Below, piece by piece: positions 140-4,845 of a stretch of DNA of 5,066 nucleotides; position 1 is the stretch's first letter, and each line of letters starts with the position of its first letter. The stretch lies in assembly GCA_000004985.1 (NCBI GenBank), contig GG739169.1; one strand, given 5' to 3'. The position numbers and the translations under genes were made by a program. The stretch comes from Naegleria gruberi (taxonomy: Eukaryota). The notes under the pieces were generated by a model. It saw only the letters and a list, made by a program, of their open reading frames with translations. It ran no database searches and was not told the origin of the DNA.

Positions 140-1000
140 ATGTATGAAATTGAAAAGAAATTTCTCTTCTCTAAAACATGGTTAAATAATGCACCATCAC
201 TATTATTAAAAAATACAAATAAATTACCATCATTATCTTTATTTAATAATAATAATATCGGAACACAATGTAAAAGTGATGGATTATTACAATTATTAAA
301 TAAATCAACATTTATAGGAGAAACAACATTTACAGATACATATTATGATATTTTAAATAATAATAATAATAATATAATATTACAATATAATGATAATACC
401 AATATTCATAATACTAATAATATTAATAATAAATATTTATTATCTAGATTAGATATTTGGTTTAGAAAAAGAAATAATTTATTTGAAATTAAAATACCAC
501 ACAATATGTCAAATAAATTAAATAATAATACTAATTATTTAAATTTTATAAATCAAGAAATTAATTTATTAAAACAATTAAATTATTCAAATATTGATCA
601 ATATAAAGAAATTACTAATAATGATGAAATTTTAAATTTATTAAATTTTATATTAAATATTAAATATCATAATTTAAATGAAATTTTAAATAATAATTTA
701 ATTGAACCATATTCATCAATACAAACAATTAGAAAAACATTTAAATTTAATGAATTTAAAATAGATTTAGATGAATCTATACAAATATATCCAAATTATA
801 TTAATGATTTATGTCAAATTGGTGAAATTGAATTAATTGTTGAAAATGAAAATGAAATTGAATTGGCATCTCAAAAAATTATTAATTTATGTAAGGAATT
901 TAATTTACAAACAGAAGAAGGAAATAAAAGTAAATTATTTACTGCAATTCAATTATCAAGTAAGGAACATTGGAATGTATTACAAGAATCTGGAATTTAA
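140..1000 (+). CDS. CYTH-domain protein, thiamine-triphosphatase-like (25-kDa ThTPase family); single exon, 286 aa
   Basis: The ORF is complete, with an A-tract (129-139) directly before the ATG. The N-terminal E-x-E-x-K signature (YEIEKKF) matches the start of the CYTH domain. From memory of the human THTPA sequence I recognise three matching blocks: FTDTYYD against human FRDTYYD, LDIWFRKRNNLFEIKIP against WLRRREDSGWELKCP, and IGEIELIVENENEIELASQKI against VGEVEALVHEEAEVPTALEKI. The stop is at 998-1000 and is followed by AATAAA motifs. Asn-rich insertions are typical of dictyostelid orthologues. Confidence 0.75.
   Translation: MYEIEKKFLFSKTWLNNAPSLLLKNTNKLPSLSLFNNNNIGTQCKSDGLLQLLNKSTFIGETTFTDTYYDILNNNNNNIILQYNDNTNIHNTNNINNKYLLSRLDIWFRKRNNLFEIKIPHNMSNKLNNNTNYLNFINQEINLLKQLNYSNIDQYKEITNNDEILNLLNFILNIKYHNLNEILNNNLIEPYSSIQTIRKTFKFNEFKIDLDESIQIYPNYINDLCQIGEIELIVENENEIELASQKIINLCKEFNLQTEEGNKSKLFTAIQLSSKEHWNVLQESGI
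356..373 (+). repeat. (AAT)6 coding trinucleotide repeat (Asn run) inside the ThTPase-like CDS
   Basis: Seen directly in the sequence. It encodes NNNNNN. Confidence 0.9.
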
Positions 1001-1016
1001 ATAAAAGATTAATAAA
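1000..1016 (+). terminator. Candidate poly(A) signals (AATAAA at 1000-1005 and 1011-1016) for the 140-1000 gene
   Basis: Two canonical hexamers lie immediately after the stop codon. Such hexamers occur frequently by chance in AT-rich DNA, so this is weak evidence. Confidence 0.3.
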
Positions 1017-1460
1017 ATAAAAGTTGTATTAAATTAAATCTTAAACTTTTTAAAACTCAATCCTTTAAGCAATATTATGATTCATGTTCAAATACTCGTA
1101 TTCCTGCCTCCTTTGATTCAAGTAATGTGTTTGCGAGCGTTGGTCCTGCGACTCAAGAAAAACACCTTCTTATACATTCGCATTTTGATTTTTCATTAAC
1201 CTCTTAAGTTCCCCAAGGTAGTGTCGTTCGAGTAAATTATAGATCTTTCCGTATCATATTTCCGAGGTTGTATTTAGCTTAAGTTGTATTACAGACTAAT
1301 TAATGATTGTTGGTAATCACAGTACTATGAGATTTTCTGTTGTGGAAGATGTATCATATAAAATTCCTAAGTATATGCAGACTAATTATATGAAACTGTC
1401 GTAACGTCATTATAACGCTATCGACTTTCGTCGTTTAGTTGATAGAGGTATTCCATCTTG

Positions 1461-1686
1461 ATGTTTGTTATACTGCACCAAACATTCTTTGAACTTCAGA
1501 TTAACAGCTTAGTAAACTGGGCCGTACCGAACAAGATGGAAGTGGTATTAATAGACATCTAACGTACATGTGTATCCATACTTGTCTTTAGTGGAATGAA
1601 TATATGAGTTTTGACGATCATTAGCTTATGTATTACATCGAGTCATAACCCAATATTTTCTTCTCAAATAATGACTCAACAATTGA
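1461..1686. repeat. Copy A of a diverged repeat unit of about 230-240 bp, truncated by the assembly gap
   Basis: It aligns by eye to 1741-1980 with shared blocks in the same order: atgtttgttata, cattctttgaactt, taaactgg, caagatggaagtggt, gtggaatgaata, (t)atgtattacat and ttcttctcaaat. I estimate roughly three quarters identity. Confidence 0.7.
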
Positions 1687-1736
1687 NNNNNNNNNNNNNN
1701 NNNNNNNNNNNNNNNNNNNNNNNNNNNNNNNNNNNN
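1687..1736. other. Assembly gap (50 N)
   Basis: The N run is seen directly. Its position between two repeat copies suggests a repeat-induced assembly break, so the true distance and copy number are unknown. Confidence 1.
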
Positions 1737-1740
1737 TCGT

Positions 1741-1980
1741 AATGTTTGTTATATTTCATCAATCATTCTTTGAACTTTTCAGATGGAACAGTTTGGTAAA
1801 CTGGATGTCACCGTATAACCATCTCCACAACACAAGATGGAAGTGGTCTAGTACATGTCTATCCCAAACTTGTTTCTAGGTAGTGGAATGAATACAGAGA
1901 GTATGAATTTTTATGATGATTAGGGTATGTATTACATACCCTATATGTTCTTCTCAAATTATGCCTCAGAATTATTTTCA
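1741..1980. repeat. Copy B of the diverged repeat unit of about 230-240 bp
   Basis: It shows the same ordered sequence blocks as copy A (see above). Confidence 0.7.
1921..1943. other. Perfect 23-nt palindrome/hairpin, tagggtatgt-att-acatacccta
   Basis: Seen directly. A 10-bp perfect inverted repeat surrounds a 3-nt centre. Three of its stem pairs are G:C, which is unusual in this genome. It is present only in copy B; copy A has a degenerate version at about 1625-1640. Confidence 0.8.
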
Positions 1981-2414
1981 TTGTACAACTAACGTGAACT
2001 ATGGATAATAAACAAACAACATCATTAACAACACGTATCAGTAAAATTCTACATATACATTTCTGCAGATTATTGGGAAAAGTAAGTATATTAGAAAAAA
2101 CCATATACATTACATTTTGTGTTAAAATCAATAGTTTCGAATAATGAACCTTTGCTCTTTCATCTCTAATCTACCACAATCAAAAGTTTAAGTGTAATTC
2201 TATTTATTACAGTTCCTTATTACATGCTTTGCCTTTTCGTTTTGGTAAACATTCTTCCGTTCTACATGTTTCGAATTTTTGCAATTCGAATTTCAAATGA
2301 TCCAATTTTACTGAACTCAATGCATATATATAACCAAGCCACATTGTACCATACAAATCTATTATTAAAAGTTCATTCATTTAAAATATTGAATTAATTC
2401 AAAAAATAAAAAAA

Positions 2415-3401
2415 ATGACATCACGATATATATTCAATAAAAATTTAGAACATGAACAAGTGAAAGCATCTAATAAATATCATAATACAGAAACTAAGAG
2501 AGTATTAACAGTTAAATTTGATAGAGATTCTAAAAATCAATATGTAACAAATTTAAAAAAACGTAAAGATATAAATCGTGTAATTGGATATGAACAACAG
2601 AAAAGACATGATGAAAAAATTAAACAACAAGAAAAGGAAGAAAAGAAATTAAGATATGATGAAATGTTAAGAAGTTTAGATATTGATCCTGATCAATTTA
2701 AAGGAAATTCTAAAAAGAATGAATATGAAAGATTATTAAAAAAACAAAAAACATTAAATGATGGAGTTAATGATGAAGATGATGAAGATGATGATGATGA
2801 TGGATTTAAATCTTCAACATTTAATTTAAAAACTGATATGGATAGTAGTGAAAGTGAAAGTGATGATAATACTAATAATAATAATCAACAATTTTTATTA
2901 AATATGAATAATCAATCAGATGATGATGAAGATGAAGCTGATAATAATGATGAATCATCGGAAGAAGAAGAAGAAGATAATAATAATATTAAAACATATA
3001 ATAATAATAATAATGAAGATGGAGAAGAATCATCATCAGTTTCAGTAACAATTAAACCATTTAATTTTAATACAGGTAGTTTTGATTCAGAAGAATCATC
3101 TGATAGTAGTAGTGATAGTGATGATAGTGATAATAGTGATGATGAAGAAAAGAAAGAAGAAAGAAAAGTATCAATTCGTCATCAAGTACTTTCACTTAAA
3201 CCTCATGAATTAAATAGAAAGATTGTAGAAATGCAAAGAGAAAAGAAAAAGGAAAAGAAACAAAAGAAATTTAATCCACAAAAAGCAGCACAAGATTTGA
3301 AAAAGAAAAAGAAATTTAAAAAGGAAGGTAAATCATTTGCTGAAAAAAAGAGAGAAGAAAAAAAGAAGAAACAACATGCTCAAAAAAGAAAGAGAAGATA
3401 A
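2415..3401 (+). CDS. Acidic, Ser-rich and Lys-rich protein, probably of the Nop25/NOL12/Rrp17 nucleolar family; single exon, 328 aa
   Basis: The ORF is complete with an A-tract before the ATG, and there is an in-frame stop upstream at 2382. The N-terminal block VKFDRDSKNQYVTNLKKRK resembles the family motif v-FDeE-Rr-yLTGFhKRK as I recall it. The central D/E/S low-complexity region is dense with casein-kinase-2-type sites. The basic K/R-rich C-terminal tail (KKKKKFKK...KRKRR) is typical of nucleolar or pre-ribosomal proteins. The family assignment comes from memory of the motif, not from a search. Confidence 0.55.
   Translation: MTSRYIFNKNLEHEQVKASNKYHNTETKRVLTVKFDRDSKNQYVTNLKKRKDINRVIGYEQQKRHDEKIKQQEKEEKKLRYDEMLRSLDIDPDQFKGNSKKNEYERLLKKQKTLNDGVNDEDDEDDDDDGFKSSTFNLKTDMDSSESESDDNTNNNNQQFLLNMNNQSDDDEDEADNNDESSEEEEEDNNNIKTYNNNNNEDGEESSSVSVTIKPFNFNTGSFDSEESSDSSSDSDDSDNSDDEEKKEERKVSIRHQVLSLKPHELNRKIVEMQREKKKEKKQKKFNPQKAAQDLKKKKKFKKEGKSFAEKKREEKKKKQHAQKRKRR
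2772..2801 (+). repeat. (GAT/GAA)n coding repeat (Asp/Glu run) inside the Nop25-like CDS
   Basis: Seen directly: gatgaagatgatgaagatgatgatgatgat. Further acidic/Ser and (AAT)n runs follow up to about 3150. Confidence 0.85.
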
Positions 3402-3512
3402 ATTATTTAAAATTATATTTAATTATTATTTAATATTTTAAAAGTTCATTAAAATAGTTCATCATGCCATTCATTGATGAATATATTTATTTTTATAATT
3501 TATTAAAAAAAA

Positions 3513-4169
3513 ATGTCATCACAACAACAACAAGTATCTAATACTAATAATAATAATAATAATAATATAATAACAGAACCTGAAGATACTAATGAATATA
3601 AATTTAAACATTATTGGGATTCTAGATTTGAAAAAGAAGAACAATATGATTGGTTAGGAACATATTCACAATGGAAACAATATCTTACTCCTATTTTATT
3701 ATCTACTAATACTACTACTACTACTATTATTAATAATAATACTATTAATAACAATACAACTGATGATAATAATAATACTATTAATGAAAAGAAAAAAGAA
3801 TTAAAAATCTTAATTATTGGATGTGGTAATAGTACACTTGGACAAGATATGTATATGGATGGATATACAAATATAATAAATATGGATTATAGTAGTAAAG
3901 TGATTGAAAAGATGAAATTAAAATATCCAAATATGGAATGGATTGAAATGGATATGTTAGATATGAAAGGATTTGAAAATGAAACATTTGATATTGTATT
4001 AGATAAAGGTACCATGGATGCACTTGTTGTTGATGCAGGTGATCCATGGGATCCTGAACAACACGTTAGATATGAAACTTTAAAAATGTGTAAAGAAATT
4101 TATAGAATTTTAAAACCAAGTGGTAGATTTTTACAAATTACTTTTTCACAACCTCATTTTAGAAAAATT
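3513..4169 (+). CDS. Exon 1 of a class-I SAM-dependent methyltransferase, EEF1A-lysine methyltransferase 4 / ECE2-N-terminal-domain family
   Basis: YWDSRFEKEEQYDWLGTY matches the family N-terminal motif (human EYWDQRY...YDWFGDF). KILIIGCGNS is the Rossmann motif I. NIINMDYSSKVIEKM matches human NVTSVDYSSVVVAAM. FDIVLDKGTMDALV matches FDVVLEKGTLDALL. LKPSGRFLQITFSQPHFRK matches LVPGGRFISMTSAAPHFRT. A GTATGT donor begins at 4170, directly after the Ile codon, so the intron is phase 0. Confidence 0.8.
3546..3566 (+). repeat. (AAT)7 coding repeat (Asn run) near the N-terminus of the methyltransferase; (CAA)4 at 3525-3536 and (ACT)5 at 3711-3725 lie nearby
   Basis: Seen directly. These are low-complexity insertions relative to animal orthologues. 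Confidence 0.9.
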
Positions 4170-4261
4170 GTATGTTTTATTTTTATATTTTTATATTTTT
4201 ATATTTAAATTTAATTTTATTTAATTTTATTATATTTAATATTTTTAATATTTTAAAATAG
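4170..4261 (+). other. Intron (92 nt, GTATGT...ATAG, essentially A/T only)
   Basis: The canonical dictyostelid donor GTATGT and acceptor AG are present, and the interior is nearly pure A/T. Splicing joins ...HFRKI to FLNPQTEDNQNVLDWSIKHVYVEEIGFGYPLFNIQKPPFN*. This restores homology to the C-terminus of human EEF1AKMT4: WSIKH matches WSLRH and GFGYPLFNIQK matches GFHFHLYLMHK. The unspliced read-through instead gives the nonsense tail IVCFIFIFLYFYI. Confidence 0.75.
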
Positions 4262-4384
4262 TTCTTAAATCCACAAACAGAAGATAATCAAAATGTATTA
4301 GATTGGTCTATTAAACATGTATATGTTGAAGAAATTGGATTTGGATATCCTTTATTTAATATTCAAAAACCACCATTTAATTAA
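4262..4384 (+). CDS. Exon 2 (terminal) of the EEF1AKMT4-like methyltransferase; stop TAA at 4382-4384
   Basis: See the intron evidence. There are 40 codons in frame after the acceptor, and their similarity to the C-terminus of the human family member continues. AATAAA lies downstream at 4422-4427. Confidence 0.72.
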   Translation, partial: FLNPQTEDNQNVLDWSIKHVYVEEIGFGYPLFNIQKPPFN

Positions 4385-4421
4385 TTATTTTAATACTTTC
4401 TCTATTTAATAATTAAATATT

Positions 4422-4427
4422 AATAAA
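4422..4427 (+). terminator. Candidate poly(A) signal AATAAA for the methyltransferase gene
   Basis: The hexamer lies 38 nt after the stop codon. Chance occurrence is likely in AT-rich sequence. Confidence 0.3.
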
Positions 4428-4845
4428 ATATATCATTCACAAACACTTTATTCTCGAAAGAAATAGTATTATTATAGTTTTATCTCCAATTGATAAATGC
4501 TCTATCTTTATATTCTGAACTGTGTGTCTGGTGCAAACAAATTAATCAGGTTGATGATAGAGAGAGAGATAAAAAGTAATTGTAGAATATTTCAAACGAT
4601 GGCTTTCAAAAGTATAAACGTTAAACCGTTTTAAAAATTTAAATCAACAAATCCTTAAAAAAAAACATCACTCTCCCTTAACAATTTATTGTACTAGCAC
4701 CATCACTACTTTCTCACTTAGTATTATCATCATCATCAACATTAATAGGAACATAATCTAGGCCATCTTAAACACATTACAACTATTTATTATATAATAC
4801 TAATAATAATACTAATACTAATATTAATAAGAATAATACATAAAA

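What the first reader, a model, noticed from the sequence alone, without database searches (positions are those of the whole stretch)
1040..2400. Compositionally foreign, ORF-free island with diverged tandem repeats straddling an assembly gap
The three flanking intergenic spacers are almost pure A/T, but this 1.35-kb stretch has many G/C and no coding capacity. It contains at least two copies of a unit of about 230-240 bp, at 1461-1686 and 1741-1980. I estimate roughly 75 percent identity with the same block order. The assembler broke exactly between them with 50 N, so the real array may be longer. Internal short direct repeats are also present (cagactaatta twice, and the ttgtattaca motif recurring at 1025, 1285 and 1630/1929). 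This is the signature of a transposon or complex-repeat remnant, or of a tandemly amplified non-coding element. Dictyostelid candidates include the TRE, DIRS, DDT and thug families, but I cannot assign a family without a library. It also enlarges the gene1-gene2 spacer to about 1.4 kb, against 111 bp and 461 bp for the other spacers.
Basis: seen in the sequence. Interest (0 to 1): 0.5.

Follow-up and report, generated by a model that had tools for sequence, protein, structure and literature searches.

The report
Ordinary Naegleria spacer with gap-flanking duplicate
The flagged stretch is a non-coding spacer between two genes on a small Naegleria gruberi scaffold (not a slime mould); its base composition is normal for Naegleria, and its only repeat is one roughly 230-bp segment found on both sides of the assembly gap, so it is ordinary and may partly be an assembly artefact.

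Summary
The sequence features are real. A 1,414-bp gene-free spacer (1001-2414) has no coding capacity. Its core is 32% GC. Two diverged copies of a roughly 230-bp segment (1456-1686 and 1737-1980) abut a 50-N gap.

The framing is wrong on two points:
- **Organism.** The window is a complete 5,066-bp scaffold of Naegleria gruberi. Gene 3 is 100% identical to XP_002668272.1. The dictyostelid transposon families do not apply.
- **Composition.** The island is not foreign. Its GC and 3-mer content match N. fowleri spacers (32%) and lie near the N. gruberi genome mean (35%). A second spacer core in the window (4434-4783) is 29% GC. Only the 50-110 bp next to each gene are nearly pure A/T.

No testable hallmark of a transposon, tRNA, Rfam family, structured RNA or pseudogene was met. 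Only two copies exist in the window, and their differences fit uniform neutral decay. The homology runs exactly up to both contig ends. It is therefore either an old local tandem duplication whose remainder lies in the gap, or a false duplication of unmerged overlapping contig ends or haplotypes. I cannot separate these without reads.

Interest is low.

The parts
1001..2414 (.). Complete spacer between gene 1 (CYTH-domain ORF, 140-1000 +) and gene 2 (2415-3401 +). It is 1,414 bp including 50 N.
   Evidence: ORF list. GC is 30.5%. No Pfam hit in any of six frames at E<=10.
1051..2350 (.). ORF-free spacer core with Naegleria-normal composition (32.3% GC).
   Evidence: GC is 32.3%, against 32.1% for N. 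fowleri spacers. Its 3-mer distance is smallest to N. fowleri spacers (0.035). The genome mean for N. gruberi is 35%.
1001..1050 (.). Extremely AT-rich edge directly after the gene 1 stop codon (10% GC).
   Evidence: 50-bp bins. Similar edges lie at 2351-2414, 3402-3512, 4384-4433 and 4784-4845.
2351..2414 (.). Extremely AT-rich edge directly before the gene 2 start codon (14% GC).
   Evidence: 50-bp bins.
1456..1686 (.). Copy A of the duplicated segment. It runs to the last base of contig 1.
   Evidence: nhmmer E=9e-70 against the A/B profile.
1687..1736 (.). Scaffold gap of 50 N. This is a placeholder and the true distance is unknown.
1737..1980 (.). Copy B of the duplicated segment. It starts at the first base of contig 2.
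   Evidence: nhmmer E=4e-75.
1451..1541 (.). 10-bp inverted repeat, TTCCATCTTG (1451-1460) and CAAGATGGAA (1532-1541), closing a branched fold. It is the only locally stable fold in the island.
   Evidence: z = -2.8 for the minus strand of 1385-1545 and -1.4 for the plus strand. The upstream arm is not kept in copy B.
1923..1941 (.). Perfect 7-bp hairpin GGGTATG-TATTA-CATACCC in copy B. Copy A has only an imperfect counterpart.
   Evidence: Sequence; folds.
1292..1388 (+). Two exact CAGACTAATTA 11-mers (1292-1302 and 1378-1388). They bracket a weak, sub-threshold match to a C/D snoRNA family (snoR69Y).
   Evidence: expected 0.24 occurrences, and 5 of 200 shuffles give two or more. Rfam score 25.6 bits against a gathering score of 45.
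1862..2170 (-). Longest stop-free stretch in the island (103 codons). It is not a gene.
   Evidence: 3.3% of shuffles reach this length. It has 0 homologues among 1.84 billion representative proteins. The equivalent part of copy A is broken by indels that are not multiples of three.

Best explanation
The stretch is an ordinary long intergenic spacer of Naegleria gruberi. It is not a mobile element, not foreign DNA and not a recognisable RNA gene.

Each gene in the window is bordered by 50-110 bp of almost pure A/T, presumably promoter, UTR or polyadenylation sequence (inferred). Any spacer longer than that has a core of about 29-32% GC, which is the normal composition of Naegleria non-coding DNA (shown).

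Within this spacer, one non-coding segment of at least 230 bp was duplicated locally in tandem, by replication slippage or unequal exchange (inferred). The two copies then drifted apart neutrally, to about 11% substitutions plus many small indels (shown). The scaffold gap falls inside the duplicated region, so the true unit is 231 bp plus the unknown gap length.

Gene 2 is inverted relative to N. fowleri (shown), so the spacer sits at a lineage-specific rearrangement point. This may be why it is long (inferred). I put the duplication being real rather than assembly-made at only slightly better than even.
For: **Organism.** The spliced gene 3 is identical to N. gruberi XP_002668272.1, whose only contig is 5,066 bp.

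**Composition**
- The island core is 32.3% GC. N. fowleri spacers are 32.1%, and the 3-mer distance is smallest to them.
- The N. gruberi genome is 35% GC (PMC9928731).
- The N. fowleri locus has an ORF-free spacer of 1,147 bp at 27% GC.
- The second long spacer of the window has a 28.6% GC core.

**Non-coding**
- Stops occur at about the chance rate expected for this composition (my estimate, roughly 8% of codons) in all frames.
- There is no Pfam hit.
- The longest open frame has 0 homologues.
- There is no relic of the neighbouring N. fowleri genes.

**Duplicate**
- The alignment score is 173, against 4 +/- 3 for shuffles.
- Only two copies exist in the window.
- Runs of identity fit uniformly scattered differences. 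The longest is 15, against 21 expected. There are 6 runs of 12 or more, against 3.8 expected, p=0.07.
- Indels of 5-12 nt carrying well-formed sequence argue against base-calling error.

**Rearrangement.** The gene 2 orthologue lies head-to-head with gene 3 in N. fowleri but in tandem with it here.
Against: - Homology starts at the first base after the gap and ends at the last base before it. An unmerged overlap of contig ends would give exactly this pattern.
- Copies only 78-89% alike should not by themselves break an assembly, so the position of the gap needs another explanation, such as low coverage.
- The ratio of 16 indels to 22 substitutions and the absence of a transition excess (7 transitions to 15 transversions) are unusual for simple neutral divergence.
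- The copy number in the rest of the N. gruberi genome could not be examined, so a dispersed repeat family is not excluded.
- Within this window, coding DNA (21.6% GC), the intron (2% GC) and the gene edges (about 9% GC) are all more AT-rich than the spacer core. If these reflect local mutational bias, a neutral core should also be more AT-rich.
Confidence: 0.4

Rival explanations
1. The spacer is ordinary, but the 'tandem repeat' is an assembly artefact. Contig 1 ends and contig 2 begins with the same roughly 230-bp genomic segment. The two versions come from two divergent haplotypes, or less likely from poor read tails. The assembler could not merge them, so the scaffolder placed them side by side with a minimal 50-N gap. 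The true spacer would then be about 1.13 kb with one copy.
For: - Homology is bounded exactly by both contig termini, 1686 and 1737, and neither contig holds a second copy. This is the expected geometry of an unmerged overlap.
- The scaffold is tiny and extremely AT-rich. This fits poor clone coverage, though I have no coverage data.
- Naegleria is described as mainly a heterozygous diploid (PMC9928731).
- The high indel-to-substitution ratio and the lack of a transition excess look less like ordinary paralogue divergence.
- A run of exactly 50 N looks like a minimal placeholder (my reading, not tested).
Against: - About 11% substitutions plus indels of up to 12 nt is far above the allelic divergence I would expect, while the flanking genes assembled as single sequences.
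- Multi-base indels with clean sequence are not typical base-calling errors, and there are no ambiguous bases near the contig ends.
- Identity does not fall towards the contig ends; it is lowest in the middle of the overlap.
Confidence: 0.33
2. The island, or its duplicated unit, is a decayed fragment of an unclassified Naegleria repeat family or non-autonomous transposon that also occurs elsewhere in the genome.
For: - It is non-coding and internally duplicated. It is GC-richer than the local genes, intron and gene edges, which would suit a younger insertion.
- Most N. gruberi repeats cannot be classified as known transposons (PMC12344493), so the lack of a recognisable domain is not decisive.
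- It sits next to a gene that was inverted relative to N. fowleri.
Against: - There are no reverse transcriptase, integrase or transposase remnants in any frame.
- There are no terminal inverted or long terminal repeats and no target-site duplication at the island edges.
- No other copy is found in the window, in the 41 kb of N. fowleri and Willaertia loci, or in the viral and metagenome scans.
- Its composition equals ordinary Naegleria spacer DNA.
Confidence: 0.12
3. The duplicated unit encodes one or more lineage-specific small non-coding RNAs. An example would be a tandemly repeated snoRNA-type cluster, as known from the related Euglenozoa. The copies would then be paralogous RNA genes.
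For: - Four of the seven weak Rfam matches in the island are to C/D-box snoRNA families.
- One simple C/D-like candidate on the minus strand (2025 to 1963) coincides with the weak SNORD45 match.
- Both copies can form a hairpin at the same place with different stem sequences.
- There is a locally stable fold at 1385-1545.
- My one literature search found no Naegleria snoRNA catalogue, and Rfam coverage of the group is probably thin (my assumption), so a miss would be unsurprising.
Against: - All Rfam matches are far below their gathering scores, the best being 25.6 bits against 45.
- Whole-unit fold z-scores are only -0.4 to -1.45.
- The consensus folds are weak, at -14.4 and -11.0 kcal/mol for 262 columns. 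The two copies fold differently.
- The box-like motifs are not conserved between the copies. ATGATGA in copy B corresponds to ACGATCA in copy A.
- The C/D candidate count is no better than in shuffles, p=0.17.
- The differences between the copies are spread uniformly rather than sparing blocks.
Confidence: 0.08
4. The island is a dead gene (pseudogene), or a real gene broken by sequencing errors.
For: The longest stop-free stretch (103 codons) is somewhat longer than in most shuffles; 3.3% of them reach it.
Against: - Stops occur at about chance density in all six frames.
- There is no Pfam hit at E<=10.
- The open frame has no homologue among 1.84 billion representative proteins.
- There is no similarity to any N. 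fowleri neighbouring gene.
- The four flanking genes have intact frames, so sequence quality is adequate.
Confidence: 0.03

Closest known systems
False segmental duplications flanking gaps in shotgun assemblies of heterozygous diploids (unmerged overlapping contig ends or haplotypes). I cite this as established knowledge, not from a paper read here.
   Same: Two similar segments sit immediately on either side of a scaffold gap. The homology ends exactly at both contig termini, and neither contig holds a second copy.
   Different: The divergence (about 11% substitutions and 16 indels in 230 bp) is much higher than usual for such artefacts. No read-depth or trace evidence was available.
Local tandem duplication or low-copy minisatellite in intergenic DNA.
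   Same: The copies are in direct orientation with the same block order. They are non-coding, and their differences are spread uniformly as under neutral decay.
   Different: Only two copies are visible. Head-to-tail adjacency is hidden by the gap, and the unit length is unknown (231 bp plus the gap).
Unclassified repeats of N. gruberi reported in the methylome study (PMC12344493).
   Same: It is non-coding, repeat-containing sequence of N. gruberi with no recognisable transposon domain.
   Different: Membership in any genome-wide family could not be tested. The composition matches ordinary spacer DNA.
Tandemly repeated snoRNA gene clusters of Euglenozoa (my own knowledge of Euglena and trypanosomatids; a lead only).
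   Same: A few-hundred-bp non-coding unit is repeated in tandem in a discoban genome, with weak C/D-family resemblances.
   Different: No conserved C and D boxes, no terminal stems shared by both copies, no significant structure and no Rfam match at threshold.
   Same: It is a relatively GC-richer, ORF-poor stretch among AT-rich genes.
   Different: The host is wrong: it is Naegleria gruberi. There is no tRNA gene nearby, no transposon protein domain and no terminal repeats.

Membership tests
Dictyostelid transposons (TRE, DIRS, DDT, thug) | The host genome is a dictyostelid. | tested here: not met
   Gene 3 is identical to N. gruberi XP_002668272.1 on a 5,066-bp contig. The next best hits are N. 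fowleri (74%), Willaertia (63%) and Acrasis (48%).
Dictyostelid transposons (TRE family) | Insertion next to a tRNA gene. | tested here: not met
   ARAGORN finds no tRNA gene in the window.
Transposable element or remnant (any class) | Traces of reverse transcriptase, integrase, transposase or tyrosine recombinase coding sequence. | tested here: not met
   The six-frame translations give no Pfam family at E<=10. The longest open frame has 0 homologues.
Transposable element or remnant (any class) | Terminal inverted repeats, long terminal repeats or target-site duplication at the element ends. | tested here: not met
   The repeat search of 1001-2414 and the sensitive self-BLAST find no significant terminal repeat pair. 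The CAGACTAATTA pair brackets 75 bp with no inverted ends.
Transposable element or remnant (any class) | Multiple dispersed copies in the host genome. | not testable with these tools
   No N. gruberi genome could be searched. Exact-product look-ups for window genes found no N. gruberi contig. There is no copy elsewhere in the window or in the N. fowleri locus L001.
Tandem repeat array | Two or more copies more alike than chance, in direct orientation. | tested here: met
   Alignment score 173, against 4.3 +/- 3.1 for shuffles. 182 matches to 22 mismatches.
Tandem repeat array | Copies lie head to tail on one molecule. | tested here: inconclusive
   The junction is replaced by 50 N. Tandem Repeats Finder reports no array there.
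False duplication at an assembly gap | The similar segments occupy the very end of one contig and the very start of the next. | tested here: met
   Homology spans 1456-1686 (contig end at 1686) and 1737-1980 (contig start at 1737).
False duplication at an assembly gap | Half read depth or haplotype-specific reads over the two copies, and no read joining copy A to copy B. | not testable with these tools
   No reads or traces were available.
C/D-box snoRNA | C box (RUGAUGA) and D box (CUGA) brought together by a terminal stem, with a family-level match. | tested here: not met
   The best Rfam score is 25.6 bits against a gathering score of 45. One weak candidate in my own scan is no better than shuffles, p=0.17. 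Box-like motifs are not shared by the two copies.
C/D-box snoRNA | A guide of 10 nt or more complementary to rRNA, ending next to box D or D'. | not testable with these tools
Structured non-coding RNA in general | A fold more stable than shuffles, kept in both copies with compensatory changes. | tested here: not met
   Unit z-scores are -0.4 to -1.45. Consensus energies are -14.4 and -11.0 kcal/mol, with only 3 double changes each from two sequences. The one local fold with z = -2.8 is not kept in copy B.
Pseudogene | Translated similarity to a known protein. | tested here: not met

The most novel reading that the evidence does not exclude
The duplicated unit of about 230-290 bp is a pair, or a larger gap-hidden array, of Naegleria-specific non-coding RNA genes. 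An example would be a tandem snoRNA-type cluster like those of the sister group Euglenozoa. Such genes would have escaped Rfam because heterolobosean RNAs are hardly catalogued.
Probability: 0.07. Interest if true: 0.45.

Novelty: new member of a known kind. Interest (0 to 1): 0.1.

Why it matters
It matters mainly as a correction.
- **Taxon.** The window looked dictyostelid by composition, but it is a Naegleria gruberi scaffold. A search against a dictyostelid repeat library would have been misdirected.
- **Composition.** The 'foreign island' is simply what Naegleria non-coding DNA looks like once one moves more than about 100 bp from a gene.
- **Assembly.** The one structural oddity, a diverged duplicate hugging the only gap, is a flag for assembly curation. 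Existing N. gruberi Nanopore reads could settle in minutes whether the spacer holds one copy, two, or an array.

If the duplicate is real, it is an unremarkable neutral tandem duplication at a site where gene order differs from N. fowleri.

Tried and rejected
**Transposon and coding tests**
- Dictyostelid transposon: rejected, wrong organism.
- tRNA gene or SINE: none found.
- Transposon protein remnants: six-frame Pfam scan empty.
The longest open frame alone gave 0 hits.
- Pseudogene of N. fowleri neighbours: nothing convincing; the best match is an 18-residue AT-rich stretch at E=0.002 among 200 query pieces, and the rest are E>=0.027.

**RNA tests**
- Rfam on the whole window, on the island alone and on the 462-bp spacer gave only sub-threshold noise.
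- Structure was tested with a sliding z-score scan, single-copy folds and consensus folds on both strands. Nothing convincing emerged.
- My own C/D-box scan was no better than shuffles.
- 'Conserved blocks' as a sign of selection: rejected, because the identity runs fit uniformly scattered differences.

**Searches for relatives**
- Non-coding similarity to the N. fowleri locus: none.
- Willaertia shares no synteny beyond gene 3.
- An orthologue of gene 1, to find a second syntenic anchor: only bacterial-type CYTH proteins were found.
- Independent N. gruberi contigs to close the gap: none on record.
- Two-block pattern scans of viral and metagenome collections gave 0 hits. A looser pattern gave 5 hits that are chance matches in contigs of 40-58% GC with no extended similarity.
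- Vector, plasmid or phage contamination: no BLAST match.

**Literature**
- The N. gruberi genome paper (PubMed 20211133) is not held. Its heterozygosity figures and gap conventions could not be checked.
Full report
**What is in the sequence**

The window holds four plus-strand genes:
- g1, a CYTH-domain ORF (140-1000);
- g2 (2415-3401);
- g3, a class I methyltransferase with one 92-bp intron (3513-4169 and 4262-4383);
- the start of g4 (4846 onward).

The flagged stretch is the g1-g2 spacer, 1001-2414. The only run of N is 1687-1736, exactly 50 N. GC is 31.5% for 1040-2400 and 9.9% for the 111-bp g2-g3 spacer. It is 2% for the g3 intron and 16-24% for the coding regions. Every reading frame of the spacer has 25-37 stops per about 470 codons.

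Two segments, 1456-1686 and 1737-1980, are collinear. MAFFT column identity is 78%. A gapped pairwise alignment gives 182 matches, 22 mismatches (7 transitions, 15 transversions) and 16 internal indels of 1-12 nt. It scores 173, against 4.3 +/- 3.1 for shuffled sequence.

The short motifs also exist. CAGACTAATTA lies at 1292 and 1378, which is marginal because 5 of 200 shuffles also give two or more. TGTATTACA is exact at 976, 1285, 1629 and 1928.

**The organism is not a dictyostelid**

My spliced model of g3 is residue-for-residue identical to P0002. This is EFC35528.1 / XP_002668272.1, NAEGRDRAFT_76819, 'predicted protein [Naegleria gruberi]'. Its only contig is 5,066 bp long, the length of this window. 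The next best homologues are N. fowleri (74%), Willaertia magna (63%) and Acrasis kona (48%).

In N. fowleri the g2 and g3 orthologues are also neighbours. The window is therefore a whole small scaffold of the N. gruberi assembly. TRE, DIRS, DDT and thug are not candidate families.

**The composition is not foreign**

The published N. gruberi genome GC is 35% (PMC9928731). In the 21-kb N. fowleri locus, spacers are 22-40% GC (pooled 32.1%) and genes 30-40%. That locus contains an ORF-free spacer of 1,147 bp at 27% GC.

The island core (1051-2350) is 32.3% GC. Its strand-symmetric 3-mer profile is closer to N. fowleri spacers (distance 0.035) than to anything else tested.

Inside the window, the 462-bp g3-g4 spacer is not 'almost pure A/T' either. 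Its 350-bp core (4434-4783) is 28.6% GC. Only the 50-110 bp directly next to each start or stop codon are nearly pure A/T, at 6-14% GC. The 111-bp spacer consists of nothing but two such edges.

So the island is what Naegleria spacer DNA looks like when a spacer is long. The unusual composition in this window belongs to the genes, the intron and the gene edges, not to the island.

**Tests for known kinds of element**

- *tRNA genes.* None were found.
- *Rfam.* Rfam was run on the window, on the island alone and on the other long spacer. The best match is a C/D snoRNA family (snoR69Y) at 1298-1387, with 25.6 bits against a gathering score of 45. Three other weak C/D-family matches score 16-20 bits.
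- *C/D scan.* My own C/D scan finds one weak candidate, no more than in shuffles (p=0.17). The one perfect C-box-like ATGATGA in copy B reads ACGATCA in copy A.
- *RNA folding.* Whole-copy folds have z-scores of -0.4 to -1.45 on either strand. Two-sequence consensus folds are weak, at -14.4 and -11.0 kcal/mol over 262 columns.
- *Local fold.* The single locally stable fold spans 1385-1545 on the minus strand (z = -2.8). It is closed by TTCCATCTTG and CAAGATGGAA, and its upstream arm is not kept in copy B.
- *Protein domains.* The six-frame translations hit no Pfam family at E<=10.
- *Longest open frame.* The longest stop-free stretch is 103 codons (1862-2170, minus strand), a length reached by 3.3% of shuffles. 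It has no homologue among 1.84 billion representative proteins.
- *Gene relics.* There is no relic of the genes that neighbour g2 and g3 in N. fowleri.
- *Terminal repeats.* No terminal inverted or long terminal repeats mark the island's edges.
- *Contamination.* There is no match to plasmids or phages.
- *Relatives elsewhere.* Two-block patterns from the repeat found nothing in the viral and metagenome collections. A loosened pattern gave five chance hits with no further similarity.

**The repeat itself**

A profile built from the two copies finds only those two in the window. Their differences are spread as expected for uniform decay. The longest identical run is 15, against 21 expected. Six runs of 12 or more occur, against 3.8 expected (p=0.07). 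The apparent 'conserved blocks' are therefore no evidence of selection.

The key geometric fact is where the homology begins and ends. It begins at the first base after the gap (1737 aligns with 1456). It ends at the last base before the gap (1686 aligns with about 1975). Neither contig holds a second copy. Two readings predict exactly this.

*(a) A real tandem duplication with the gap falling inside the duplicated region.* The unit would be 231 bp plus the true gap length. Parts of what now look like unique flanks would belong to the unit.

*(b) A false duplication.* The end of contig 1 and the start of contig 2 would be the same locus, from two haplotypes or from poor read ends. They failed to merge and were set side by side with a placeholder gap.

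The evidence splits as follows.
- For (a): the divergence is large for alleles, at about 11% substitutions. Several indels are 5-12 nt of clean sequence, unlike base-calling noise. Identity does not fall towards the contig ends.
- For (b): copies this different should not confuse an assembler, so a gap exactly here is otherwise a coincidence. The scaffold is tiny and very AT-rich, so coverage was probably low (inferred). Naegleria is described as mainly a heterozygous diploid (PMC9928731). The indel-to-substitution ratio (16:22) and the lack of a transition excess are odd for ordinary paralogue divergence.

I could not obtain reads, or a second assembly of the locus. I rate (a) only slightly above (b).

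**Context**

In N. fowleri the g2 orthologue lies on the opposite strand, head-to-head with g3 and about 80 bp away (L001 8979-9920 minus; g3 at 10001-10915 plus). In this window g2 points the same way as g3. No orthologue of g1 or g4 was detected in the 21-kb N. fowleri locus (for g4 only a 73-residue low-complexity fragment could be tested), and Willaertia shares only g3. The long spacer therefore sits at a lineage-specific rearrangement point. That it is long for this reason is an inference.

**Verdict**

The best-supported reading is an ordinary Naegleria intergenic spacer. It has one local duplicate of non-coding DNA, which may be real or made by the assembly.

A relic of an unclassified repeat family cannot be excluded, because genome-wide copy number was untestable. 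Most N. gruberi repeats are reported as unclassifiable (PMC12344493). A lineage-specific small-RNA gene pair is the most novel reading left open, but nothing I could test supports it.

Interest is low. The useful outcomes are the corrected taxon, the corrected reading of the composition, and a flag for gap closure.

Noticed in passing
window 140-1000, 2415-3401, 3513-4383, 4170-4261, 4434-4783: Coding DNA in this window (21.6% GC) is more AT-rich than the cores of the two long spacers (32.3% and 28.6%). The g3 intron is 2% GC and the gene edges are 6-14%. The published N. gruberi genome mean is 35%. This reverses the usual pattern of coding being GC-richer than non-coding, and it makes the scaffold an AT-rich outlier. 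That may also explain why it is a tiny orphan scaffold.
   Followed up: partly
window 2415-3401 versus L001 8979-9920: Gene 2 is inverted relative to N. fowleri. There its orthologue (47.6% identity over 336 residues) lies head-to-head with the methyltransferase gene, about 80 bp away. Here the two genes are in tandem with a 111-bp spacer.
   Followed up: partly
window 140-1000: Gene 1 is an intact 286-codon CYTH-domain ORF whose exact product is not in the 15-billion-protein collection. Its best homologues are bacterial-type CYTH proteins (31-36% identity, for example from a Patescibacteria MAG). No orthologue was seen in the N. fowleri or Willaertia loci. It may be an unannotated gene and possibly a lateral acquisition.
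   Followed up: partly
window 2415-3401: The exact product of gene 2 is also absent from the protein collection, although it has a clear N. fowleri orthologue. The public N. gruberi annotation probably has a different model here, or none.
   Followed up: no
window 4434-4783: This is a second ORF-free stretch of Naegleria-normal composition (28.6% GC, C>G), lying upstream of gene 4. It has no Rfam match and no similarity to the island.
   Followed up: partly
window 976-984, 1285-1293, 1629-1637, 1928-1936: The near-palindromic 9-mer TGTATTACA occurs four times exactly. With one mismatch it occurs 13 times on both strands, against 4.2 expected, and no shuffle reached that. Two of the exact sites are the same position in copies A and B. 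It could be a protein-binding motif or chance.
   Followed up: partly
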